Source: Lentihominibacter sp. (GTDB lineage Bacteria; Bacillota; Clostridia; Peptostreptococcales; Anaerovoracaceae). Taken from it: a DNA stretch of 41,294 nucleotides. Shown here piece after piece: positions 15,684-28,391 of this stretch. The translations under genes and the position numbers were made by a program. The notes beneath the pieces were generated by a model. It did not search any database. It saw nothing but the letters and a program-made list of their open reading frames with translations, and was not told the origin of the DNA. The stretch spans positions 1-41,294 of the forward strand of contig JBJESR010000172.1 in assembly GCA_051882895.1 (NCBI GenBank), in the 5' to 3' direction. Within the stretch, counting starts at the first letter, position 1. Every line of letters starts with the position of its first letter.

Positions 15684-16382
15684 ATGAAAAAAAAGGATAC
15701 GATACTGTTTGACTTTGACGGAACAATCATGGATACCAATGATGTCATTCTTAAATCATGGCAGTACACTTTCAGGTCACTTGAAAACAGAGAAGCTGAT
15801 GAAGATGAATTGAAGAAGACTTTTGGAGAACCGCTGGATATTACAATCAGCAGGTTTTTCCCTGAGGTTCCTGTAGAGGAATCAATAGAAATATACAGGA
15901 GTTATCAGCGCGATCATTTCAGGGAACTGATAACGCTGTTTCCGGGAATGAAAGAGCTTCTGGCAGTTCTCAAAGAACATGGTTATAAAACAGGGCTTGT
16001 AACATCAAGACTGTATAATACCACTGTACAGGGGCTTGAAAAATACGGATTAAAAGAGTATTTTGATGAAATAGTGACTCCGGAAGATACGGACAGACAT
16101 AAACCTGATCCGGAGCCGGTACTGATTGCTCTTGAGAAACTTGGCTCGGAACCGGAGAATGCTGTCATGCTTGGGGACACGTTGTTTGATATCAAGTGTG
16201 CCAGAAATGCAGAAGTTGAATCGGTCCTGGTAGCATGGAGCTTTGCTCTGCAGGGAGAAACGAAGGAATCTCTGGGAGATGATGCACCGGATCATATCAT
16301 TGGAAGACCTGAAGAACTGCTGGAGATCCTGTCGCCAGAGGGAGGTCACGATGATGACAAAGGAAAAGGAATGGGTGTATGA
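15684..16382 (+). CDS. HAD-family phosphatase (PpaX/Gph-like)
   Basis: FDFDGT, VTS, KPDPE and GDTLFD HAD motifs. Confidence 0.9.
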   Translation: MKKKDTILFDFDGTIMDTNDVILKSWQYTFRSLENREADEDELKKTFGEPLDITISRFFPEVPVEESIEIYRSYQRDHFRELITLFPGMKELLAVLKEHGYKTGLVTSRLYNTTVQGLEKYGLKEYFDEIVTPEDTDRHKPDPEPVLIALEKLGSEPENAVMLGDTLFDIKCARNAEVESVLVAWSFALQGETKESLGDDAPDHIIGRPEELLEILSPEGGHDDDKGKGMGV

Positions 16383-17997
16383 ACATTATGTAGAGGTTCA
16401 GGAAGACAGCAAAGGAGCTTTAGAAGCAATTCAATTCAAGAATACAGAGAATTTTAATTTCGCCTATGATGTTGTGGACAGACTGGCAGATAAAAATCCC
16501 GAAAAGGTTGCCATGGTTCATATTGCCAAGAATAAGAGAAAGCGTGAGCTGACATTTGGAGATATGAGCAGTTATTCTTCAAAAATTGCAGCGTATTTTC
16601 AATCATTAGGAATAGGAAAAGGTGACAAGGTAATGCTGGTGCTCAAAAGGCATTATCATTTCTGGTTTGCCATTCTGGCACTTCACAAAATAGGGGCAGT
16701 TGTAATACCGACCACCAATCTGCTTAAACAGAGAGATTATGAGTATAGATTCAAAGCAGTCGATGTCAAAGCAATAGTATGTACAGCTGATGATGATGTG
16801 GCGTATCAGGTGGACCTGGCTGCTGAAAATATGGATAGAGAAATCATTAAAATAATTGTCAGGGGTAAAAGAAACGGATGGAATTCACTGAACAGAGCGG
16901 TATATGAATTTGACAGCAGCTTCACCCCTGAAGTGTATGCAGGAGGAGATGATCCTTCAATCATGTTTTTTACGTCGGGAACAACCGGGTACCCCAAGAT
17001 TGTGACTCACGATTTCAGATATCCTCTGGGACATTTTATTACTGCGAAATACTGGCATCAGGTGGATCCTGAGGGACTGCACTTCACTATTTCGGATACA
17101 GGCTGGGGGAAAGCACTCTGGGGTAAAATATATGGCAAGTGGCTCTGCGAAGCGGCGGTTTTTACATATGATATGGACAGCTTTGAAGCCGGAGAAATGC
17201 TGGAAATGATAGAAAGCCACAGAATTACCACATTCTGTGCACCTCCTACAGCATACAGAATGCTGATAAGAAAAGACTTTTCAAAATACGATCTCAGCAG
17301 CCTGAAGCATGCGACCACAGCAGGGGAAGCTCTGAATCCGGAAGTTTTCAATCTGTTCAGAGAAAAAACCGGTCTCCTTCTTCATGAAGCTTTCGGGCAG
17401 ACAGAGACAACCCTGACAATAGGCACCCTCAAGGGAGATGTTCCGAAACCAGGTTCGATGGGAAAAGCATCACCGGCATATGATATTGATATTGTTGACA
17501 GTAAAGGCAGACCGGTAAAACCAGGGGAAACAGGAGAAATAGTGGTTCGTACAGGGAAAGCAAGACCGGCAGGTCTGTTTATGGGGTACTATGGTAATGA
17601 TGAACTGACTGCGGAAGCATGGCATGACGGTTTGTATCATACGGGAGATCTTGCAACAAGAGATGAGGATGGCTACTTCTGGTATGTCGGTCGAAACGAT
17701 GATGTGATCAAGTCCGCCGGATACAGAATAGGACCCTTTGAGATAGAAAGTATTCTTATGGAGCTGCCTTATGTCCTTGAGTGCGGAGTCACGGCAGTTG
17801 AAGGCAGACTCAGGGGTAAAATGATCAAAGCCTGCATCGTGCTGGTAGATGGTACAGAGGGAACAGACGAACTGAAAAAAGAAATACAGAAATATGCCCG
17901 ACGTAAGATGGCATCATACAAATGCCCGAAAATAATTGAGTTCAGAGATGAACTGCCAAAGACCATCAGCGGTAAAATACAGCATAACAAGCTCTAG
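16351..17997 (+). CDS. AMP-forming short/medium-chain acyl-CoA synthetase
   Basis: FFTSGTTGYPK, SDTGWGK, FGQTET, YHTGD, GRNDDVIK and LPKTISGKI. Start moved to ATG 16351, which follows GGAGG. Confidence 0.9.
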   Translation: MMTKEKEWVYEHYVEVQEDSKGALEAIQFKNTENFNFAYDVVDRLADKNPEKVAMVHIAKNKRKRELTFGDMSSYSSKIAAYFQSLGIGKGDKVMLVLKRHYHFWFAILALHKIGAVVIPTTNLLKQRDYEYRFKAVDVKAIVCTADDDVAYQVDLAAENMDREIIKIIVRGKRNGWNSLNRAVYEFDSSFTPEVYAGGDDPSIMFFTSGTTGYPKIVTHDFRYPLGHFITAKYWHQVDPEGLHFTISDTGWGKALWGKIYGKWLCEAAVFTYDMDSFEAGEMLEMIESHRITTFCAPPTAYRMLIRKDFSKYDLSSLKHATTAGEALNPEVFNLFREKTGLLLHEAFGQTETTLTIGTLKGDVPKPGSMGKASPAYDIDIVDSKGRPVKPGETGEIVVRTGKARPAGLFMGYYGNDELTAEAWHDGLYHTGDLATRDEDGYFWYVGRNDDVIKSAGYRIGPFEIESILMELPYVLECGVTAVEGRLRGKMIKACIVLVDGTEGTDELKKEIQKYARRKMASYKCPKIIEFRDELPKTISGKIQHNKL

Positions 17998-18101: not shown

Positions 18102-18139
18102 AAATACTTTGATAATCAAAGTATTTGATATACGAAATA
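18102..18139. promoter_or_regulatory. FabT-type operator: perfect palindrome plus adjacent degenerate copy
   Basis: AAATACTTTGAT-A-ATCAAAGTATTT (18102-18126) with a TTTGAnnnTCAAA core; TTTGATATACGAAA follows and overlaps it. Confidence 0.85.
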
Positions 18140-18156: not shown

Positions 18157-19143
18157 TTGGGAATAAGAATCATAGGAGTAGGTAAGAACCTCCCCGAAAG
18201 AGTTGTGACAAACGATGAGATGTCGCAGTATATTGATACGGATAACGAGTGGATCATTGAACGGACAGGGATAGCTCAGAGGCATGTGGCTACAACAGAG
18301 AAATCCCTTGACATGGCGGCTGCAGCAGCTGAGGAGGCTCTGGAAGGTATTGATAAAGAATCGATTGATCTTGTTATCGTTGCTACTGTTACTCCTGATG
18401 ATATCACGCCGAGTATGGCAGCACAGGTGAAGAAGGCCGTTAAACTGCCTAACGCTGTAGCTTTTGATATAAATGCAGCATGCAGCGGTTTTGTATATGC
18501 CCTGTGGATAGCCGAATCACTGATGAAAGGAAGCGCAGCAGGAGGATCGGTGACCAACGGTATGAATAGGGCCCTTGTAATAGGAACAGAGAGGATGACG
18601 AGGATCACCAACTGGGTAGACAGAGGAACGTGCATTCTTTTTGGAGATGGCGCAGGTGCTGCAGTACTGGAAAATACTCCGGGTGAGAGAGGTATTATAA
18701 GCACATATATCAGGAACTATGATGATGAGAACGAAGTTATGAAATGCAAGGCGAATTATGTGAATCCACCGTTCTGGGAAGATGATCTGACTCCACGTCC
18801 GCTGAGCATGAGGGGCAGAGCTGTTTTTAAATTTGCTGTGAACGCAATTGAAGAGGTTACCACAGGTGCACTGGAAAAAGTCGGACTTACACTTGACGAT
18901 GTGGACTGGTTTGTTCCCCATCAGGCAAATGGCAGAATAATCCACGCAGCAGCCCAGAAACTGGGACAGCCGCTGGATAAGTTCCAGATAAGCATCAAAG
19001 AAAGCGCTAATGTGTCTTCAGCTACAGTTCCTATGGCACTTTATGATTTACAGAGTAGCGGAAAACTTAAAAAAGGTGATATAATAGCAGTAATGGGTTT
19101 TGGCGGCGGACTTTGCGCGGCGGGAGCCATAATTGAATGGTAA
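18157..19143 (+). CDS. fabH: Beta-ketoacyl-ACP synthase III
   Basis: AACSGF (Cys), PHQAN (His), ANVSSA (Asn) and FGDGAGA. Start moved to TTG 18157 after GGAGG. Confidence 0.95.
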   Translation: MGIRIIGVGKNLPERVVTNDEMSQYIDTDNEWIIERTGIAQRHVATTEKSLDMAAAAAEEALEGIDKESIDLVIVATVTPDDITPSMAAQVKKAVKLPNAVAFDINAACSGFVYALWIAESLMKGSAAGGSVTNGMNRALVIGTERMTRITNWVDRGTCILFGDGAGAAVLENTPGERGIISTYIRNYDDENEVMKCKANYVNPPFWEDDLTPRPLSMRGRAVFKFAVNAIEEVTTGALEKVGLTLDDVDWFVPHQANGRIIHAAAQKLGQPLDKFQISIKESANVSSATVPMALYDLQSSGKLKKGDIIAVMGFGGGLCAAGAIIEW

Positions 19144-19186: not shown

Positions 19187-20140
19187 ATGGTAAACGTTTG
19201 TGAAATTTTAGGTACTGAATATCCGATTATCCAGGGTGCTATGGCCAGAATTGCCGAATGTAACCTGGCTGCGGCAGTAAGCAACGGCGGCGGACTCGGG
19301 ATTATCGCAGCAGGCGGTCAGTCTGCTGAATGGCTGAGGGAAGAGATAAAAAAGACACGAGAGATGACAGATAAACCTTTTGGTGTAAATATCATGCTGC
19401 TGGCTGATAATGTGGAAGAACTGATACAGGTGGTATGTGAGGAAAAGGTTCCTGTAGTGACCACCGGAGCAGGAAACCCGGGCAAATACATAGCCAGGAT
19501 GAAAGAATACGGCATCAAGGTGATTCCGGTTGTTGCCAATGTAGCTCTTGCTATGAGAGTTGCCAGAGCTGGAGCTGATGCTGTAGTAGCAGAAGGTACA
19601 GAAGCTGGCGGCCATATTGGAGAAACCACAACTATGGCGCTGGTTCCGCAGATGGCGGATGCTGTGGACATTCCTGTAATTGCTGCAGGAGGAATAGCTG
19701 ACGGCAGAGGAGTAGCTGCCGCATACATGCTGGGCGCCAGAGGTGTTCAGGTAGGAACCAGATTCCTTGTAGCAAACGAGTGCATAGTGGCACAGGGCTA
19801 TAAGGATGCTATAATCAAAGCTAAGGATTCCTCTACAGTAGCTACAGGAAGAAGCACGGGGCATCCTGTGAGAATAATAAAGAACAAACTGGCAAAGAAA
19901 ATCCTTACTCTGGAATCACAGAATGCACCTGAAGAGGAAATCAATCAGCTGTGCACAGGAACTCTGGCTGCGGCAGTAAGAGATGGAGATGCGGATAACG
20001 GTAATATAATGTCCGGACAGATAGCAGGACTTGTTAAAAAAGAACAGTCTGCAGCGGAAATTATTGAGGAAATGTTTAAGGAGGCGGAGAAAGTATATGA
20101 AGATAGGAATAGTATTTGCAGGGCAGGGCGCACAGTATAG
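19187..20140 (+). CDS. fabK: Enoyl-ACP reductase II
   Basis: PIIQGAMA, EAGGHIG with intact His, AAGGIADG and GTRF; fab context. Confidence 0.93.
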   Translation: MVNVCEILGTEYPIIQGAMARIAECNLAAAVSNGGGLGIIAAGGQSAEWLREEIKKTREMTDKPFGVNIMLLADNVEELIQVVCEEKVPVVTTGAGNPGKYIARMKEYGIKVIPVVANVALAMRVARAGADAVVAEGTEAGGHIGETTTMALVPQMADAVDIPVIAAGGIADGRGVAAAYMLGARGVQVGTRFLVANECIVAQGYKDAIIKAKDSSTVATGRSTGHPVRIIKNKLAKKILTLESQNAPEEEINQLCTGTLAAAVRDGDADNGNIMSGQIAGLVKKEQSAAEIIEEMFKEAEKVYEDRNSICRAGRTV

Positions 20141-21077
20141 CGGAATGGGCAAAGACCTTTATGACGCTTACCCTGAAGCTGCCGGCGTATTCGATATGGC
20201 CGGGCAGCAGATAAAGGACTGGTGCTTTGATGGAGATGAGGAAACACTTAAACAGACTCATGTGACACAGCCTACTATATATACTACAACAATGGCGGCA
20301 TATGAGGCCTTCATGGCGGAGCTGGATAAGCAGGACCTTGCGGACAAAATTGAAGTTACAGCTTTCGCGGGCTTCAGTCTGGGAGAATACTCAGCGCTGA
20401 CAGCAGCAGGAGCCATTGACGATATAGCCAAAGGCATAGACATTGTTACCAGAAGAGGAATGCTTATGCAGCAGGCAGGTCTTGATGAAGAAGGAAATGC
20501 CAGAGGCGGTATGGCAGCAGGTCTGGGAGAAAGAGACGCGATCCTTGAAGCTGTAGAGGAGGCCAGGGAAGACGGCATACTGGAAGGAGTGAATTTCAAT
20601 TCACCTAAACAGACAGTAGTTGCAGGTGACAAGGCTGCCCTTAAACGATTCAGACGTGCAGCTAAAGCCAGAGGCATCAAAGCAATACCACTGGGAGTAA
20701 GCACTGCTTTTCACAGCCCTATGATGGTGCCTGCAGCAGAGAAACTGAGAGATGTACTGGCCGCTGCAGACCTGAAGGCTCCGCAGAAAAAGGTATATGC
20801 TGATGTGACAGCAGATGATATGATGAAAGATTTTGACGGGAACGATGCAGGTGCATATCTGACGGACATGCTGGCAAAACAGGCAATGAGTCCGGTTTAC
20901 TGGGAAGAAATCATCAGAAAATTCGAAGCGGATGGCGTAGAGGCGATGATTGAAGTAGGACCGGGTAAAACCCTGACGGGGCTGACGAAGAAAACATGCC
21001 CTGAAATAGCTGCATATAATGTTGAAAACGTTGAAACCCTTATGGCAGCAGTCGATGCTCTCAGGGAAATGGTATAG
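20097..21077 (+). CDS. fabD: Malonyl-CoA:ACP transacylase
   Basis: FAGQGAQ, GFSLGEY, AFHS and EVGPGK. Start moved to ATG 20097, giving a 44-nt overlap with fabK. Confidence 0.95.
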   Translation: MKIGIVFAGQGAQYSGMGKDLYDAYPEAAGVFDMAGQQIKDWCFDGDEETLKQTHVTQPTIYTTTMAAYEAFMAELDKQDLADKIEVTAFAGFSLGEYSALTAAGAIDDIAKGIDIVTRRGMLMQQAGLDEEGNARGGMAAGLGERDAILEAVEEAREDGILEGVNFNSPKQTVVAGDKAALKRFRRAAKARGIKAIPLGVSTAFHSPMMVPAAEKLRDVLAAADLKAPQKKVYADVTADDMMKDFDGNDAGAYLTDMLAKQAMSPVYWEEIIRKFEADGVEAMIEVGPGKTLTGLTKKTCPEIAAYNVENVETLMAAVDALREMV

Positions 21078-21097: not shown

Positions 21098-21838
21098 ATG
21101 CTAAAAGATAGAACAGCAGTAATAACAGGAGGTGTCAGAGGAATCGGCAAAGCCATTGCCAGAACTTTCTGCGATAATGGAGCCAATGTGATACTCTGTT
21201 ACAGAAGCAATGATGAAGAAGCAGAGAAAACCGCTGCAGAACTGTCTGCTCTGGGAACTGCAGTAAAATTGATCAAAGGTGATGTGGCGGATCCTGAGAC
21301 CGCAAAAAAGGTGGCAGCTGAAGCAAAAGCTGAATTCGGCCGTGTTGATATTCTGGTGAACAATGCAGGAATAACAAATGACAAGCTGATGATGAGAATG
21401 ACACCTGCAGACTTTACCAAAGTAATTGATGCCAACCTGAACGGAGCCTTTTACATGATGAAAGAAATCTCTGCACTTATGGTTAAACAGAGAAGCGGAG
21501 CCATAATCAATATGGCCTCAGTATCAGGGCTTAAAGGAAACCCTGCTCAGGTAAACTACAGTGCTTCAAAAGCAGGCATAGTGGGAATGACTCTTTCTGC
21601 GGCAAAGGAGCTGGGAAGACGCGGCATCAGAGTCAATGCCATAGCTCCCGGATTTGTAGAAACAGATATGACGTCTGTTCTTACAGAAGAACAGAAAAAA
21701 TCAGCAGCTCAGAATATTACTCTGGGCAGAATGGGACAGCCTGAAGATATTGCAAACGCTGCACTTTTCCTGGCATCGGATATGAGCTCATATATTACAG
21801 GACAGGTAATCGGTGTGGACGGCGGAATTATAATGTAA
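21098..21838 (+). CDS. fabG: 3-oxoacyl-ACP reductase
   Basis: TGGVRGIG, NNAG and YSASK SDR motifs. Confidence 0.96.
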   Translation: MLKDRTAVITGGVRGIGKAIARTFCDNGANVILCYRSNDEEAEKTAAELSALGTAVKLIKGDVADPETAKKVAAEAKAEFGRVDILVNNAGITNDKLMMRMTPADFTKVIDANLNGAFYMMKEISALMVKQRSGAIINMASVSGLKGNPAQVNYSASKAGIVGMTLSAAKELGRRGIRVNAIAPGFVETDMTSVLTEEQKKSAAQNITLGRMGQPEDIANAALFLASDMSSYITGQVIGVDGGIIM

Positions 21839-21864: not shown

Positions 21865-23103
21865 ATGGATATGGAAAAAAGAGTTGTGATAACAGGACTG
21901 GGAGTTGTATCCCCTGTAGGAAATAATGTTGATGAAATGTGGGATTCAATCCGAAACGGCAGACATGGTATTGCCCAGATTACTTCATTTGATCTTGAAG
22001 GACATAAGGTGACCATGGGTGCGGAAGTCAAGAATTACGATTACGGAGATAAAAAGGCTGCCAGAAGGCTTGACCTGGCAGATCAGTTTGCTCTGACAGC
22101 TGCCAGAGAAGCAATGGAGGACAGCGGCATATCAAGCGGAGAGAATGTTGACCCTGACCGATTCAGTGTATATGGCGGTACAGGAATAGGAGGCATGAGA
22201 ACTCTGGAAAGCGAAGTGACCAAATGCGTCAGAAAAGATAAGCTGGCAAGAGCATCCGCGCTTCTGATACCTATGGTTATGCCTAATGCTGTTTCAGGAA
22301 ATATCTCTATGGAATTCAATGCAAAGGGTGCCAGCATGGGAATAGTGTCGGCTTGCGCTACAGGAACACATTGCGTTGGAGAAGCCTTCAGAAATATCAA
22401 GCATGGTTACAGTGATGTTGTTCTGGCAGGCTCAACAGAATCTGTATTTTCACCTGTATGTTTCTCGGGATTTTCCAATATGACAGCTATGTCCACAAAG
22501 ACAGATCCCGACAGATGCTCAATCCCGTTTGACGTGGAAAGAGACGGATTTATTCTGGGTGAAGGTGCTGCTTTTCTGGTTCTCGAGGAGCTGGAACATG
22601 CACTGAACAGAGGCGCGAAGATTTATGGGGAGGTCATAGGCTATGGAGCAACTTCAGATGCATATCATATCACATCCCCGGCGCCGGACGGTGAGGGTGC
22701 AGCCAAGGCTATCAGACTTGCTATTCAGGAGGCCGGTATAACACCTGACGATATAGACTACATCAATGCACACGGTACAGGAACTCCTTATAATGATGCA
22801 TTTGAAACAATTGCAGTCAAGAAAGTCTTCGGAGAGAACACTAAAGTACCAATGAGTTCAACAAAGAGTATGACAGGACATCTTCTGGGAGCAGCAGGAA
22901 GCCTTGAGGCAGTTATCTGCACTAAGGCCATAAACGAAAGCTTTATTCCTCCGACTATCGGTCTTCAGAAACCTGATCCTGAGCTTGATCTGGACTATGT
23001 GCCTAACGTTGGACGTGATGCGGAGATAAAGTGTACGCTTTCCAATTCTCTGGGCTTCGGCGGTCACAATGCAACTCTTATTATCAGAAAATATGAAGAT
23101 TAA
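21865..23103 (+). CDS. fabF: Beta-ketoacyl-ACP synthase II
   Basis: SACATG, NAHGTGT, TKSMTGHLLGAAG and SNSLGFGGHN. Confidence 0.96.
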   Translation: MDMEKRVVITGLGVVSPVGNNVDEMWDSIRNGRHGIAQITSFDLEGHKVTMGAEVKNYDYGDKKAARRLDLADQFALTAAREAMEDSGISSGENVDPDRFSVYGGTGIGGMRTLESEVTKCVRKDKLARASALLIPMVMPNAVSGNISMEFNAKGASMGIVSACATGTHCVGEAFRNIKHGYSDVVLAGSTESVFSPVCFSGFSNMTAMSTKTDPDRCSIPFDVERDGFILGEGAAFLVLEELEHALNRGAKIYGEVIGYGATSDAYHITSPAPDGEGAAKAIRLAIQEAGITPDDIDYINAHGTGTPYNDAFETIAVKKVFGENTKVPMSSTKSMTGHLLGAAGSLEAVICTKAINESFIPPTIGLQKPDPELDLDYVPNVGRDAEIKCTLSNSLGFGGHNATLIIRKYED

Positions 23104-23123: not shown

Positions 23124-23549
23124 ATGTTAATGGATAAAGAACAGATCAAAGAAGTGATTCCTCACAGAGAGCCTTTTCTGCTTGTTGACGAAGTGCAGGA
23201 AATGGAAGTGGGTAAATCCATTGTCGCAACAAAGTATGTAAAAGAGGACGAGTACTATTTTCAGGGACATTTCCCGGGACAGCCTATTATGCCGGGAGTC
23301 CTGATCGTTGAATCCCTGGCACAGGCCGGTGCAGTCGCACTTCTTTCAATGCCTGAAAACAGGGGAAAACTTGCAGTATTCGGAGCAATCAAAAACGCCA
23401 GATTCAAGAAGCAGGTGACTCCGGGAGACGTGCTTACTCTCAGGGTGACTCTGGACAGGCTCAGAAAGAGTACAGGCACCGGCATCGCAGAGGCATATGT
23501 CGGAGACGAGCTGGCATGTAAATGCGAGATAATGTTTGCTTTCAGTTAG
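23124..23549 (+). CDS. fabZ: 3-hydroxyacyl-ACP dehydratase
   Basis: IPHREPFLLVD and FQGHFPGQPIMPGVLIVESLAQ. Confidence 0.96.
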   Translation: MLMDKEQIKEVIPHREPFLLVDEVQEMEVGKSIVATKYVKEDEYYFQGHFPGQPIMPGVLIVESLAQAGAVALLSMPENRGKLAVFGAIKNARFKKQVTPGDVLTLRVTLDRLRKSTGTGIAEAYVGDELACKCEIMFAFS

Positions 23550-23558
23550 GAGACAGAC

Positions 23559-25037
23559 GTGGATAAAGAAGTCAGAAAGATCAATGACATCCTGGTGAAT
23601 CTTTTTAATCTTGTGCTTAAGCTGGAAGAGGATGCGATCCGCAAAGACTCCTCACACAATAATGTATCCATTAAAGAAGTCCATACGCTGGTGGCAATCG
23701 GGACCGGACGTCCCAAGACAATGACTCACGTGGCAAATATACTGGGCATAAATGTGAGCACACTTACTATAGCCATCAACAGGCTGGTGAAAAAGGGATA
23801 TGTAAAAAGACTTCGCGATGAAAAGGACAGAAGAATCGTGAAGGTAGGACTGACTGAGGATGGCATTTCCGCAGTCAGGGCTCATGAAGAGTTTCATACA
23901 AGCATGATAAGTGAAGCTGTTGCGGGGATGCCCACTGATGAATTAAAACAGTTTGTATCGTCGATAGACAATATACAGCAGTTTCTCATGATGAGAAGTG
24001 CCACCTACCACAATGGGGCTGAATCGTTTTCTATGGCGCCGATTAAACTTGGAAATCATGAACTGCCTGTACCTCTGGTACAGGCAGGAATGAGCATGGG
24101 AATAGCAGCATCAGGGCTTGCTTCAGCCGTTGCCATCGAAGGCGGCCTCGGTCTTATAGGTGCTCTTGAAATAGGGCAGGGAAGACCGGGATACGAAGAA
24201 AACCGGCTTGAGACCAATCTGAAGACGGTAAAAGAAGAGGTGTCCAGAGCCATACAGCTGACAGAGGAAGCAGGAGGCAAAGGTCTTATCGGAATATCTA
24301 TCATGTGGAACAGACCTCATGTGGATAAATATATTGAGACAGCAGTGAAAGCCGGCGCACAGGTGATTGTCACTGGAGGCGCTATTCCGAAAGATCTGCC
24401 GAAATACTGCAATGACAGGAATGTAGCTCTTGTTCCTACGGTTTCATCTAAGCGTGCGGTGTCTGCTATAATGAGAACGTGGACTCAGAAATACAACAGA
24501 ACGCCGGATGCTTTCATTTTTCAGGGACCTCAGGCAGCAGGGCTGCTGGGATTCAGAATGGGGCAGCTTGACAGAGCACGGGAGGAGCAGTACAGAACAA
24601 TGGCTGCTGTCAGAGCGGAGCTTTCGAAGCTTGAGAACTGCCCGCTTATTTTCGGAGGAGGCATATACAGCCGTGAAGATGCTGTCAGAGCATATCAGTA
24701 TGGCGCTGATGGTTATCTTCTGGGAACGAGATTCGTGACAACCCGTGAGTGCGATGCACCGGAAGAATTCAGGAAGCTGTATTTGAACTGCAGTGAAAAT
24801 GATGTTACAATAATCAGGAGCCCTATGAAAACATCAGTGAGAGTACTCAATACACCATTTGCCGGCAGACTTGATAAAGAAGGTGCTGAAGATTATGACA
24901 TTGTTGAGGCGGCTGTCAGAGGAGTACAGGGTGATCTTGAGAACGGTCTGGTGTTCTGCAGCGAAACAGCAGGCAGAACTGACAGACTTGAGACAGTCAG
25001 AGATGTTTTCAGGGAGTTTACAACTCTGAAGAAATGA
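23559..25037 (+). CDS. Fusion of a MarR/FabT-like repressor and a degenerate nitronate-monooxygenase (FabK/FabX-like) domain
   Basis: aa 1-~146 is a MarR wHTH (EVHTL...STLTIAINRLVKKGYVKR...DRR). aa ~159-492 is an NMO-like barrel (PLVQAGM, GGLGLI, GGGI, GTRF, GLVFC). One uninterrupted frame. Confidence 0.85.
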   Translation: MDKEVRKINDILVNLFNLVLKLEEDAIRKDSSHNNVSIKEVHTLVAIGTGRPKTMTHVANILGINVSTLTIAINRLVKKGYVKRLRDEKDRRIVKVGLTEDGISAVRAHEEFHTSMISEAVAGMPTDELKQFVSSIDNIQQFLMMRSATYHNGAESFSMAPIKLGNHELPVPLVQAGMSMGIAASGLASAVAIEGGLGLIGALEIGQGRPGYEENRLETNLKTVKEEVSRAIQLTEEAGGKGLIGISIMWNRPHVDKYIETAVKAGAQVIVTGGAIPKDLPKYCNDRNVALVPTVSSKRAVSAIMRTWTQKYNRTPDAFIFQGPQAAGLLGFRMGQLDRAREEQYRTMAAVRAELSKLENCPLIFGGGIYSREDAVRAYQYGADGYLLGTRFVTTRECDAPEEFRKLYLNCSENDVTIIRSPMKTSVRVLNTPFAGRLDKEGAEDYDIVEAAVRGVQGDLENGLVFCSETAGRTDRLETVRDVFREFTTLKK

Positions 25038-25046
25038 GGATGACTG

Positions 25047-28000
25047 ATGCTCAACATCTACTACGGAAGTGAGACCGCAGATAAATTAAAATTCATATTT
25101 GAACATATTAAAGGCAGAACCTTGCTGCTTGTACCGGATCAGTTTTCCCTGCAGGCAGAGAAGGATGCCTTTTTTTATCTTGGAGAGAAGAGCCTGATGG
25201 ATCTGATTGTAGTTGATTTCTCATCTCTGGGAAACAAAGCAGTTACAGAGGCAGGAGGCAGGAAACCTGCAATGATAGATAAATATGGCAGGCATATTCT
25301 TCTGACAAGGATAATAGATGAAATCGAAGACGAGTTTAAGGTCTTCAGAGGTTTCAGCTGGAAAAACTCGTTTGCTGACATGATGAACAGCATGATTTCC
25401 GAAATGAAGAGATATGATATTACGCCTGAAGATATTGCTGAAGCAGAAGCCGGGCTTGATGAAGGAAGCTATCTTAAATACAAACTGCATGACATAGAAA
25501 AAATATTCACGTCATATCAGAAACGGATTGAAGGGAAATACCTTGATTCAGAAGACTATATTACATTTTACGGAGAAAAGATAACAGAATCGAGACTGGT
25601 TAATGGTGCCGAAGTCTGGATATATGGATTTGATACCTTTACACCTAAAAACCTTCAGGTGATAGAAAAACTTATTAGCACTGCTGACGCTGTGAATATA
25701 GTAATGACATACGAACCTTCAGGCAGCACTGAGAACCGTTTTTCGGATGCCCGTTTTCTGGCTGCCGAGGATGATGAGGATCTGTTCGGGCTTACAGGGT
25801 ATGTGATTTCAAAGCTTGTTCAGATTGCCGAAAACCTTGGTGAAAAGGTGAAGCTTCAGGCTATCGACGGAGAACTGAAAACAAGTGTATGGAACATGGC
25901 TGATGCAGAAGGTCCGGTTACCCTTGCTGCCGTATCTGACATATACGCAGAAGCAGAACGTGCCGCGGCATATATTATGGATCTTGTCCGGGATGAGGGA
26001 TTCCATTTCGGCGATATTGTCGTGGTGTGCAATGACTATGAACTCAGAGGCAATATTCTCAGGAGAACCTTCATAAGATGGGGAATTCCTGTATTCATGG
26101 ACAGGAAAAGGAAGGTTATGCATCATCCTGCTGTCGCTTTCCTTCTGGCTCTGATGGAAGTTGTTTCGGCAGGATACAAGGATGATGCTGTCATGAGACT
26201 GATAAAATCAGGTCTTATGGATATGACCGTGGATGAAGCCGAGCTTCTGGAAAACTATGTGCGACAGTTCCGTATCAGGGCATCGATGTGGAAAAAGGAC
26301 TTCACAAGGTGCGGCAGAAACTATACGACTGAAGATCTTAATGTGCTTAATGACCTGAGAAAAAGAGTGGTTTCAGTGATAGAGACCGCCAGACATGAAG
26401 TGGGATCAAGGAACAAGGCAGCAGATAAGATCAGAGGACTTTACAGGTTTTTAGATGAGGATTTTTTTATCAGGGATCGCCTTGATAAGATTATAGAAAA
26501 GCAGAACGGTGCCGGTCTTGCTGAAGGGGCCGCGGAGACGGCTCAGAGCTGGAATGTGATATGCAGTATTTTTGATCAGATTGTGGAAACCCTTGGCGAT
26601 GAAAGACTTTCCAATGAAGGTCTGCTTAAGCTTATGACTGCCGGTTTTGAGGAAATGGAGATCGGGCTTGTGCCGACTTCCTCTGACTGCGTGATCATCG
26701 GAACCCTTCAGAGGACAAGACTCAGCAGAATCAGAGCTCTGGTGGTAACGGGAGCGAACGAAGGCATTCTGCCTGTAGTGATGAAAGATGAGGGGCTTCT
26801 CAGCAGCAGAGAAAAGGCCGCGCTGGAGAGCATGGATCTTGAATTTTCAAAAAAGGACGACGTGGCAAGGCAGGAAGAAAAGCTTGCAATATACAGAATG
26901 CTGTCACTTCCGAAGGAAAAGCTGTATATGAGCTGCAGCAGGACAGATGAGAAAGGAGAAGAACTCAGACCGTCCCATGTGTTCACTTTGCTCAGGGAAT
27001 ATGAAAATTCTCATGGCAGAAGCAGAGTGCTGGGAGATCTGGGCAGCGGAGGAGAAGTAACCGAGCTGGCAGTTTCTGCAGCAGGAACGATATCGTATGT
27101 TGCAGAGGCACTTCGAGATAATTACTCTGATGGGTACATTGATGAAATGTGGCTGCCGGTGCTGAAGTGGTATCAGTGTAACGATGCTGTTCCCCTTGAA
27201 CGGGTGAGAGCCGGTGTGATGTTTGACAATCAGATGGATATGCTTGGCAGAGAATTTGCGGACAGGCTCTACTGTCCGGATAATGATACACTGGAAGTCA
27301 GTGCATCAAGGCTTGAAGAGTACAGCAGATGCCCCTTTGCCCATTTCGTAAAATACGGCCTCAGAGCAGAGGACCCGGCTACGTATGGCATGGGGGCAGG
27401 CGAGATTGGCGATGTATACCATGAATGTCTGATGCGGCTTTCACGAAAGCTTACGCAGGCTGCCGGGCAGGGCATCGCAGTAACAGCTCCGGATTCCCCA
27501 TGGATGACCATAACACGTCAGGAGTGCTGTGCACAGGTAAGGTATATACTGAATGAGGAAATGAAAGATTATAAAGAAGGGGTTATGACTGCAGGTCCGG
27601 AAGAAATATACCGTTCATCCAGGATTTCCGAAATATGTGAAAACATAGCCTGGATGATGATAGAACAGGTGCGAAAGGGCCATATCAGACAGATGAGATT
27701 CGAACAGCCTTTCGGCAGAGGATGCAAGCTTCCTCCCGTAAGGGTGGATGTAGGCGGCAGAGATGTTCTGATACGGGGGAAAATAGACAGGATGGATATC
27801 ATGGAAGCATCGGATGCTGTCAGAGTTGTAGATTATAAAACAGGTGCGGATTCAGTAAATATTGATTATATAAGGAGCGGTTACAAGCTGCAGCTTATGA
27901 TATATCTCAAAGCTGCAATGAAGGAACCGGCAGGTGTGTTTTATTTCAAAATAAGAGATGTTGATACAGATGCTGATGCCAGAAAGGTCGGAGAAGGTAA

Positions 28001-28391
28001 GGAAGCTTTCGCAGAACGTATGGCGGATGCATATAAACTTGAGGGAATCGTTGTGAATGATATGGATATGATAGAGGATATGGACAGTGAATTCAGCAGC
28101 TCATCACAGGTGATTCCGGTAAAGCTCAGCAGGAAGGACAATGCATATGCAGCTTCATCAGGAGGATATCTGTTTACTCCTGATGAGTTCAGTGAACTCT
28201 GTCATCAGGTGGATGAACAGGTAAAGCGCATATGCTGTGAAATCTGCGATGGCAGTATCGACATTGCACCTAAAATAGAAAAGGAAAAGGACATGGACGG
28301 CAGGCAGAGGACTTCGTGCAGATTCTGTGACTACAGGAGTGTATGCATGTTTGATACTACTTTTGCGGGATGCAGATATCACGATGCATGA
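25047..28391 (+). CDS. addB: AddB-like helicase/nuclease subunit (PD-(D/E)XK nuclease with Fe-S staple)
   Basis: VPDQFS, SASRLEEYSRCPF, RGKIDRMD, VDYKTG, LQLMIY and CRFCDYRSVC. Confidence 0.9.
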   Translation: MLNIYYGSETADKLKFIFEHIKGRTLLLVPDQFSLQAEKDAFFYLGEKSLMDLIVVDFSSLGNKAVTEAGGRKPAMIDKYGRHILLTRIIDEIEDEFKVFRGFSWKNSFADMMNSMISEMKRYDITPEDIAEAEAGLDEGSYLKYKLHDIEKIFTSYQKRIEGKYLDSEDYITFYGEKITESRLVNGAEVWIYGFDTFTPKNLQVIEKLISTADAVNIVMTYEPSGSTENRFSDARFLAAEDDEDLFGLTGYVISKLVQIAENLGEKVKLQAIDGELKTSVWNMADAEGPVTLAAVSDIYAEAERAAAYIMDLVRDEGFHFGDIVVVCNDYELRGNILRRTFIRWGIPVFMDRKRKVMHHPAVAFLLALMEVVSAGYKDDAVMRLIKSGLMDMTVDEAELLENYVRQFRIRASMWKKDFTRCGRNYTTEDLNVLNDLRKRVVSVIETARHEVGSRNKAADKIRGLYRFLDEDFFIRDRLDKIIEKQNGAGLAEGAAETAQSWNVICSIFDQIVETLGDERLSNEGLLKLMTAGFEEMEIGLVPTSSDCVIIGTLQRTRLSRIRALVVTGANEGILPVVMKDEGLLSSREKAALESMDLEFSKKDDVARQEEKLAIYRMLSLPKEKLYMSCSRTDEKGEELRPSHVFTLLREYENSHGRSRVLGDLGSGGEVTELAVSAAGTISYVAEALRDNYSDGYIDEMWLPVLKWYQCNDAVPLERVRAGVMFDNQMDMLGREFADRLYCPDNDTLEVSASRLEEYSRCPFAHFVKYGLRAEDPATYGMGAGEIGDVYHECLMRLSRKLTQAAGQGIAVTAPDSPWMTITRQECCAQVRYILNEEMKDYKEGVMTAGPEEIYRSSRISEICENIAWMMIEQVRKGHIRQMRFEQPFGRGCKLPPVRVDVGGRDVLIRGKIDRMDIMEASDAVRVVDYKTGADSVNIDYIRSGYKLQLMIYLKAAMKEPAGVFYFKIRDVDTDADARKVGEGKEAFAERMADAYKLEGIVVNDMDMIEDMDSEFSSSSQVIPVKLSRKDNAYAASSGGYLFTPDEFSELCHQVDEQVKRICCEICDGSIDIAPKIEKEKDMDGRQRTSCRFCDYRSVCMFDTTFAGCRYHDA

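What the first reader, a model, noticed from the sequence alone, without database searches (positions are those of the whole stretch)
23559..25037. FabT-like repressor fused to an apparently inactive FabX/FabK-family barrel
Seen: one ORF joins a MarR domain to an NMO-family barrel, with no convincing RBS before the barrel (ATG 24033). The family motif EGxxAGGH, intact in the neighbouring fabK as EAGGH, reads QGPQAAGLLG (24522-24551), so the catalytic His is replaced by Leu. The CxxCxxxC...YC Fe-S segment that I recall from FabX/UfaA-like proteins is missing, and YDI stands where YCI would be. Known: FabT is a stand-alone MarR that uses acyl-ACP as corepressor. Inference: a former FabX-like enzyme has been retained as a built-in sensor for acyl-ACP, acyl-CoA or flavin, giving a new one-component architecture for fatty-acid regulation.
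Basis: partly seen in the sequence, partly recalled or inferred. Interest (0 to 1): 0.82.

Follow-up and report, generated by a model that had tools for sequence, protein, structure and literature searches.

The report
Repressor fused to dead fatty-acid enzyme
One gene joins a fatty-acid-synthesis repressor to an enzyme barrel that has lost its catalytic residues yet stays strongly conserved and likely serves as a built-in sensor of carrier-bound fatty acids, and living relatives preserve the stages from separate genes to intact fusion to dead enzyme.

Summary
Confirmed. ORF 23559-25037 joins a FabT-like MarR domain to a barrel whose closest solved relative is H. pylori FabX; His182 reads Leu and the four-Cys [4Fe-4S] segment is deleted. 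It is no artefact: all 120 listed homologs are full-length fusions, and 36 of 201 family genomes carry it at the end of the fab operon. New: the fusion arose once, next to unfused adjacent fabT, fabX genes. Basal members keep His and all four Cys; His was then lost at least three times. The His-less barrel is under purifying selection (dN/dS 0.05-0.07 in close pairs, like the MarR). It keeps the basic ACP-docking helix while flavin-ring contacts drift. A FabT-type palindrome lies just after the operon's predicted promoter, the only strong site in the genome. Best reading (0.55): an autoregulated FabT repressor whose dead FabX barrel likely binds acyl-ACP. Ligand binding and allostery are inferred, not shown. 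Rivals: structural role, residual isomerase, flavin sensing. Not found in four literature searches. It is a new variant of enzyme-derived one-component regulators (FapR, BzdR), with living intermediates.

The parts
23559..25037 (+). fabT-fabX fusion gene, 492 aa, last fab gene of the cluster
23559..23987 (+). FabT-like MarR winged-helix domain (residues 1-143)
   Evidence: NF050133 125.8 bits, cut-off 200; best PDB hit 6jbx, E 4.5e-25
23988..24026 (+). variable linker (about residues 144-156), low model confidence at 150-154
24027..25034 (+). FabX-derived TIM barrel without catalytic residues (residues 157-492)
   Evidence: best PDB sequence hit FabX, E 1e-42; model vs 7e1q Z 43.0, rmsd 2.7, 330 aligned
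24444..24506 (+). helix matching the ACP-docking alpha7 of FabX: R299 = K152, R306 = K159, K311 = R164
   Evidence: alignment, residue roles from PMC8626469, conservation
24522..24551 (+). degenerate active-site loop QGPQAAGLLG (E175Q, G180A, H182L in FabX numbering)
24894..24902 (+). YDI in place of YCI, just after the deleted [4Fe-4S] cysteine loop
18067..18095 (+). predicted sigma-70 promoter of the fab operon (TTGACT-17-TATCAT)
   Evidence: consensus match only
18104..18124 (.). FabT-type operator palindrome
   Evidence: only site scoring above 16 bits in the 2.13 Mb genome (34.2; next 15.2); conserved in relatives
18120..18139 (+). weaker second operator-like half-copy, 16 bp downstream
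   Evidence: a tally across relatives could not be run
18157..19143 (+). fabH
19187..20140 (+). fabK, intact His motif
   Evidence: TIGR03151 461.4 bits, over cut-off
20097..21077 (+). fabD
21098..21838 (+). fabG
21865..23103 (+). fabF
23124..23549 (+). fabZ

Best explanation
The gene encodes a FabT-type MarR domain fused to a FabX barrel that has lost its catalytic His and iron-sulfur cysteines but is still conserved; the protein likely represses its own fab operon at the palindrome by the promoter, and the barrel likely acts as a built-in acyl-ACP binding module that would tune repression. Shown by sequence: the fusion, its single origin, stepwise loss of the catalytic residues, purifying selection, retention of the ACP-docking helix, and the operator. 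Inferred: a MarR dimer binds the operator; the single ACP docks on the barrel's basic helix as in FabX; the acyl chain enters the old tunnel. In FabX the cluster plugs the far end of that tunnel, so its deletion would make room for longer chains, the kind that co-repress FabT. Binding would then raise DNA affinity through the linker or by holding acyl-ACP next to the MarR.
For: Fusion conserved: 120 of 120 listed homologs; 36 of 201 family genomes, at the same place after fabZ. In the genus, all 27 genomes with the operon-type fabK (81% or more identical) match the fusion, and none of the 39 with a distant fabK does. Of 30 genus genomes with a match, 25 are whole, 4 are cut by contig ends, 1 is frameshifted, and none ends cleanly after the MarR; a stop codon would remove a useless C-terminal barrel. 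dN/dS of the His-less barrel: 0.06, 0.05, 0.07 in the three unsaturated pairs, MarR 0.09, 0.07, 0.06; 0.078 vs 0.072 over 16 genomes. FabX K152, K159, R164 equivalents are basic in 100, 95, 98% of 93 window-type proteins and 100% of the other His-less groups, against 99, 79, 57% in 76 stand-alone FabX; R164A abolishes acyl-ACP binding in FabX (PMC8626469). H182F and H182Q, and most Cys mutants, abolish FabX activity. His is replaced by Leu, Met, Ile, Tyr, Gln, Thr, Phe, Pro or Arg, with no common substitute. Operator within 2 mismatches upstream of the first fab gene in 43 of 53 fusion loci, 0 of 5 loci of the other fab cluster; it resembles the pneumococcal FabT box (PMC8406281).
Against: No binding or regulation is measured. 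Stand-alone FabT already responds to acyl-ACP (PMC9083066), so a second site is not needed. Not all ACP contacts are kept: R160 is Thr/Ser/Ala, I156 is Ala, G127 is Ala in the window. Only 3 basic sites carry the ACP argument, and 7 of 25 other basic sites are kept as well. Purifying selection shows a function, not which one. G237 keeps the fusion with no fab operon beside it, no fabK match and no operator match. Both domains evolve about twice as fast as fabD in this clade.
Confidence: 0.55

Rival explanations
1. The barrel is kept for structure only: after long fusion the MarR depends on it for folding, dimer stability or cooperative binding at tandem sites, while acyl-ACP is sensed by the MarR as in ordinary FabT.
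For: 73 barrel positions are at least 97% fixed in the window-type clade, many of them core Gly, Pro and hydrophobic residues. Both domains speed up together. A second operator-like copy 16 bp on is seen in the window and several close relatives. G237 keeps the barrel without the operon.
Against: Surface basic residues of the ACP helix are kept in every His-less lineage and more strictly than in stand-alone FabX. The linker is the least conserved part (32% identity), which fits a tether better than a packed interface. Tandem sites also occur with unfused FabT (L052, L149).
Confidence: 0.22
2. The barrel is still an enzyme: a cofactor-free trans-2 to cis-3 enoyl-ACP isomerase working on FabZ's product (as FabM does), or a new acyl-ACP reaction.
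For: PMC8626469 argues that isomerisation depends on tunnel shape and that dehydrogenation only supplies trans-2-decenoyl-ACP. FabZ is in the operon. 16 of 16 His-less family genomes have no second FabX-like match, and this genome has no desaturase match. The ACP helix is kept.
Against: In the window's clade both His182 and Glu175 are gone (Leu, Gln), leaving no obvious acid or base (allylic isomerisation needs one: established chemistry, recalled). The tunnel end formed by the cluster is deleted. The residue replacing His varies freely.
Confidence: 0.12
3. The barrel keeps FMN and reports flavin or redox state to the MarR.
For: The phosphate-binding GG (367-368) and GTR (389-391) are kept. 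FabX H182F keeps about 80% of its FMN, and most natural replacements are hydrophobic. Groups that lost only His keep N99, E175 and Q240.
Against: In the window's clade G22, G25, N99, E175, G180 and Q240 are changed to A, S, S, Q, A, L. In FabX, loss of the cluster led to loss of FMN.
Confidence: 0.08
4. The fusion is a recent read-through or assembly artefact and the barrel is a decaying pseudogene part.
For: One frameshifted copy (G255), a few short alleles in small clusters, and a 16-residue deletion in the orphan G237 copy.
Against:: family-wide, one origin, dN/dS below 0.1, independent contigs across the junction.
Confidence: 0.01

Closest known systems
FabT of Streptococcus pneumoniae and Enterococcus faecalis (PDB 6jbx; NF050133)
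   Same: MarR domain homology, encoded in the fab operon, same type of palindrome, expected autoregulation (PMC13046290).
   Different: Known FabT is a stand-alone protein of about 150 aa and the first gene of the operon; here it is the last fab gene and carries a 336-aa barrel. One ACP and no FakB/DegV match in this genome.
FabX of Helicobacter pylori (PDB 7e1q, 7e1r, 7e1s)
   Same: Closest sequence and fold; ACP-docking helix kept; intact fusions match all four Cys and His182.
   Different: His182, Glu175, the four Cys and several FMN contacts are missing in the window; fused to a DNA-binding domain.
FapR (Bacillus, Staphylococcus)
   Same: One-component repressor of fatty-acid genes whose effector domain is a non-enzymatic enzyme fold binding a phosphopantetheine thioester (PMC5052256).
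   Different: Hot-dog fold, malonyl-CoA/ACP as inducer; here MarR plus flavoenzyme TIM barrel, probably a co-repressor. No homology.
BzdR (Azoarcus)
   Same: [quoted passage not shown]
   Different: XRE domain plus shikimate-kinase fold; its intermediates had to be built as chimeras, whereas here unfused, intact-fused and dead-fused forms all exist in genomes.

Membership tests
FabT | MarR domain closest to FabT | tested here: met
   best NCBIfam and PDB hits are FabT
FabT | score above the NF050133 equivalog cut-off | tested here: not met
   125.8 bits against 200
FabT | stand-alone single-domain MarR, first gene of the operon | tested here: not met
   fused, last fab gene
FabT | FabT-type palindrome at the fab promoter | tested here: met
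FabT | acyl-ACP raises operator affinity | not testable with these tools
   needs EMSA
FabT | FabT's own acyl-ACP contact residues kept | not tested
   the FabT structure paper was not found in the library
FabX | NMO-family TIM barrel closest to FabX | tested here: met
   tree
FabX | catalytic His182 | tested here: not met
   Leu329
FabX | four Cys binding [4Fe-4S] | tested here: not met
   loop deleted, C320 = Asp447
FabX | FMN-binding residues | tested here: inconclusive
   phosphate site kept, six ring-side contacts changed
FabX | basic alpha7 helix for ACP | tested here: met
   K152, K159, R164 equivalents basic; R160 and I156 not kept
FabX | acyl-ACP dehydrogenase/isomerase activity | not testable with these tools
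   needs assay
FabK | TIGR03151 cut-off and catalytic His | tested here: not met
   84.3 bits against 453.1; no His
FapR | hot-dog effector domain | tested here: not met
   the domain is an NMO-type TIM barrel
BzdR | XRE domain plus shikimate-kinase-like domain | tested here: not met
   MarR plus NMO barrel

The most novel reading that the evidence does not exclude
An undescribed family of one-component fatty-acid regulators caught in the act of turning an enzyme into a sensor. Basal members are bifunctional repressor-enzymes in which an active [4Fe-4S]/FMN FabX reports its own acyl-ACP load or redox state to FabT. Derived members, at least three times independently, dropped catalysis, and the window's lineage deleted the cluster, opening the tunnel into a receptor for long-chain acyl-ACP that allosterically sets repression.
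Probability: 0.4. Interest if true: 0.85.

Novelty: new variant of a known kind. Interest (0 to 1): 0.66.

Why it matters
Enzyme-to-regulator conversion is usually inferred from end products (FapR, HutC, BzdR) or rebuilt with chimeras. Here the unfused pair, the intact fusion, His-less forms that keep the cysteines and fully stripped forms all exist in one bacterial family, so each step can be expressed and compared. It also predicts a mode of fatty-acid control not seen in the known FabT systems, and suggests that many animal-gut members of the family gave up FabX-type unsaturated fatty acid synthesis while keeping the protein.

Tried and rejected
Complex prediction of the barrel (157-492) with the genome's ACP and FMN gave no verdict (score 0.06, mark 0.32); it is not used for or against binding. 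The protein Atlas held neither the window protein nor P0062. Look-ups of earlier findings returned nothing. The first palindrome pattern had the wrong spacing and missed the operator; redone. Four rows (N99, L101, T130, N131) were mapped to the wrong columns; corrected, whose values are used. Motif labels are wrong for some loci because of the regular expression; states were taken from the alignment. Codon-model runs did not finish for the two smaller groups. dS is saturated for most pairs, so three close pairs carry the dN/dS claim. RNA-run contigs cover the gene but cannot show strand, level or a single transcript, and no silent control stretch was laid, so expression is not claimed. The script machine was lost, so the tandem-site tally, a DNA-level internal-RBS tally and a MarR-only tree were not run. 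Jerga and Rock 2009 was not held; Neisseria UfaA was not compared. Rejected: FabK paralog; internal start at 24033; degeneration permitted by a spare fabX (the three family genomes with both a fusion and a second copy, G102, G034, G146, all keep His in the fusion); a wider regulon in this genome (one strong site; genome 82% complete).

Full report
OBSERVATION. Window 23559-25037 is one 492-aa frame at the end of fabH-fabK-fabD-fabG-fabF-fabZ. Residues 1-143 are a MarR domain closest to FabT (NF050133 125.8 bits, below its cut-off of 200; PDB 6jbx E 4.5e-25). Residues 157-492 are an NMO-family barrel closest to H. pylori FabX (E 1e-42, against 2e-14 for the best FabK). The predicted model (mean pLDDT 85.4) matches FabX 7e1q at Z 43.0, rmsd 2.7, 330 aligned; FabK structures score 35.3-36.7. 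QGPQAAGLLG (24522-24551) aligns to FabX E175-G184, so His182 is Leu329. The cysteine loop is deleted and YCI reads YDI. In FabX, H182F and H182Q abolish activity, and all Cys mutants except C304 destroy the cluster, lose FMN and lose activity (PMC8626469, text parts 2 and 3 of 9).

NOT AN ARTEFACT. All 120 listed homologs (of 607 found) are full-length MarR plus NMO proteins at 44-97% identity. Contigs of other runs cross the junction. 36 of 201 family genomes carry the fusion, nearly all directly after fabZ. In a sample of the order, the 150 listed matches (151 found) include fusions only in the window's family; the 11 other families show stand-alone FabX. Named carriers are Anaerovoracaceae: Anaerovorax, Sinanaerobacter, Aminipila and Lentihominibacter faecis; the last falls in the window's clade. 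The 50%-identity library holds 11 full-length fusion clusters among its best 150 hits.

HISTORY. Barrel trees put all fusions on one side of one branch: 170 of 170 rows at support 1.0 (FastTree; two extra rows are contig-cut fusions) and 41 of 41 at 98/98 (IQ-TREE on 64 chosen rows). The nearest outside group is three family genomes with unfused, adjacent fabZ, fabT, fabX and intact motifs (G057, G022, G114). Of the 170 rows (some are near-duplicates), 34 keep EGPxAGGH plus four Cys and sit at the base, 5 keep His in an altered loop, and 131 lack His. His was lost at least three times: (i) P0102 (Tyr, Cys kept), sister at 95/87 to the large clade that then deleted the Cys loop and includes the window type; (ii) L112 (Gln, Cys kept); (iii) L140, L141, L144 (Phe, Ile, Leu; Cys kept). 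So the order is adjacency, fusion, loss of His, loss of cluster, erosion of flavin contacts. The direction rests on rooting by distant stand-alone FabX; no formal one-clade test was run. That intact fusions are active enzymes is inferred from motifs only. None of 16 His-less family genomes has a second FabX-like match, although stand-alone FabX scores far above the threshold with that query.

SELECTION. In the three unsaturated pairs the His-less barrel has dN/dS 0.06, 0.05 and 0.07; the MarR 0.09, 0.07 and 0.06; the fab enzymes 0.00-0.06. Codon models on 16 window-type genomes give 0.078 for the barrel and 0.072 for the MarR (starting values 0.13 and 0.11), against 0.058 and 0.066 in 14 intact-type genomes. 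Both domains change about twice as fast as fabD in the window type (mean dN 0.29 against 0.15) but not in the intact type (0.23-0.25 against 0.27). In the genus, 30 of 77 genomes match: 25 whole, 4 cut by contig ends, 1 frameshifted, none ending cleanly after the MarR. All 27 genomes with the operon-type fabK have the fusion; none of the 39 with a distant fabK has it. A search for shorter forms gave mostly fragments in small clusters and stand-alone FabT of other taxa.

WHAT THE BARREL KEEPS. FabX docks ACP on helix alpha7 (K152, I156, K159, R160, R164), and R164A abolishes binding. The equivalents R299, R306 and K311 are basic in 100, 95 and 98% of 93 window-type rows, and in 100% of the 24, 8 and 9 rows of the other derived groups; stand-alone FabX gives 99, 79 and 57% of 76. 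Of 28 barrel positions that are basic in most intact fusions, 10 stay basic in at least 95% of the window type: all 3 ACP sites and 7 of 25 others (about 0.04 by a hand count, indicative only, since kin are not independent). New basic residues appear nearby (298 in 92%, 278 in 60%). Against: R160 is not basic even in intact fusions, and I156 is Ala. S149, G184 and F339 of the tunnel are kept. The flavin phosphate site is kept, while G22, G25, N99, E175, G180 and Q240 are changed. In FabX the cluster blocks the tunnel end and clashes with a C10 chain, so its deletion would leave room for longer chains (inference).

OPERATOR. A perfect 21-bp palindrome at 18104-18124 lies 8 bp after a TTGACT-17-TATCAT promoter match. 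A matrix built from 29 relatives' sites, without the window's own, scores it 34.2 bits; the next site in the 2.13 Mb genome scores 15.2, and 0.7 Mb of shuffled sequence gave none above 12. 43 of 53 fusion loci have a site within 2 mismatches upstream of their first fab gene; 6 of the 10 misses (L139-L144) share a shifted variant; 0 of 5 loci of the genus's other fab cluster have one (some loci are near-identical). The box resembles the pneumococcal FabT palindrome quoted in PMC8406281 (passages). The genome has one ACP match, PlsX, and no FakB/DegV or desaturase match (82% complete); DegV matches in 8 of 77 genus genomes. The co-repressor would therefore come mostly from the pathway's own ACP (inference).

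MECHANISM. Most likely (0.55) a FabT-type repressor of its own operon whose dead FabX barrel binds acyl-ACP and tunes DNA binding. Shown: architecture, history, selection, residue pattern, operator. Inferred: DNA binding, ligand, coupling. Rivals: structural role only (0.22); residual isomerase, which PMC8626469's tunnel-shape argument allows (passages) but loss of both His and Glu argues against (0.12); flavin or redox sensing (0.08); artefact (0.01). One observation fits none well: G237 (97% complete) keeps the fusion, with a 16-residue deletion, where other genes have replaced the operon, with no fabK match and no operator match; an assembly gap lies in that stretch.

COMPARISON AND NOVELTY. 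It works like FabT but fails FabT membership on architecture and cut-off; it descends from FabX but fails on His and Cys. FapR (PMC5052256, passages) and BzdR (PMC3602430, abstract and introduction) are analogous enzyme-derived regulators with other folds. MarR proteins normally hold DNA and ligand sites in one domain (PMC5487221, passages); known FabT is the first gene of its operon (PMC13046290, part 1 of 3) and responds to acyl-ACP (PMC9083066, passages). FabX homologs in anaerobes are noted in PMC8626469 and PMC11091888 (passages). Four searches listed 6, 5, 1 and 4 papers; none describes the fusion by title or abstract start, and most of these were seen only as listings. The library lacks most subscription journals. 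Databases label the protein automatically as nitronate monooxygenase or MarR. Verdict: real, apparently undescribed, a new variant of the enzyme-derived one-component regulator, unusual in having its intermediates alive. Interest 0.66.

Noticed in passing
window 18157-19143; loci L007, L013, L015, L028, L117, L118, L121, L122, L126, L130, L132, L135, L138-L144, L190, L200, L202: fabH is missing from the operon in many loci with His-less or altered fusions but present in the intact-fusion loci that reach that far. Related strains carry a 336-nt in-frame deletion in fabH, skipping 18325-18660. Chain initiation may be decaying in these lineages. fabH was not searched elsewhere in those genomes.
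   Followed up: partly
L139-L144 (G084, G148, G036, G081, G178, G009): A clade with a remodelled active-site loop (KSGH, KSGL, KCGF) and all four Cys has a shifted operator (TTTTAT..TAAAA type), suggesting operator and MarR changed together.
   Followed up: no
L185-L189; 39 genus genomes without the fusion have a different fab cluster (divergent acp, fabK about 55% identical, fabD, fabG, fabF, fabZ) with no FabT box found upstream of fabK; five loci were read.
   Followed up: partly
L184 (G237:C39): Orphan fusion gene: an integrase-like ORF and an ORF resembling an Rpn-type nuclease (both labels recalled, not scanned) stand where the fab operon should be.
   Followed up: partly
window 25047-28391: addB starts 9 nt after the fusion's stop with no terminator match between them, and this adjacency is common in relatives; no addA follows it in the window.
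   Followed up: no
window 16243-17997: Acyl-CoA synthetase closest to MbcS (below cut-off) just upstream of the fab promoter; it could supply primers. Present near the operon in some relatives.
   Followed up: no
P0359: A 503-aa FabZ-FabX fusion with intact His and Cys motifs from an unnamed source.
   Followed up: no
G000:C285:1615-2835 and G000:C32:15271-15495: A second fabF-like gene (46% identical). The single ACP lies away from the operon, upstream of an ORF resembling the redox regulator Rex (label recalled).
   Followed up: no
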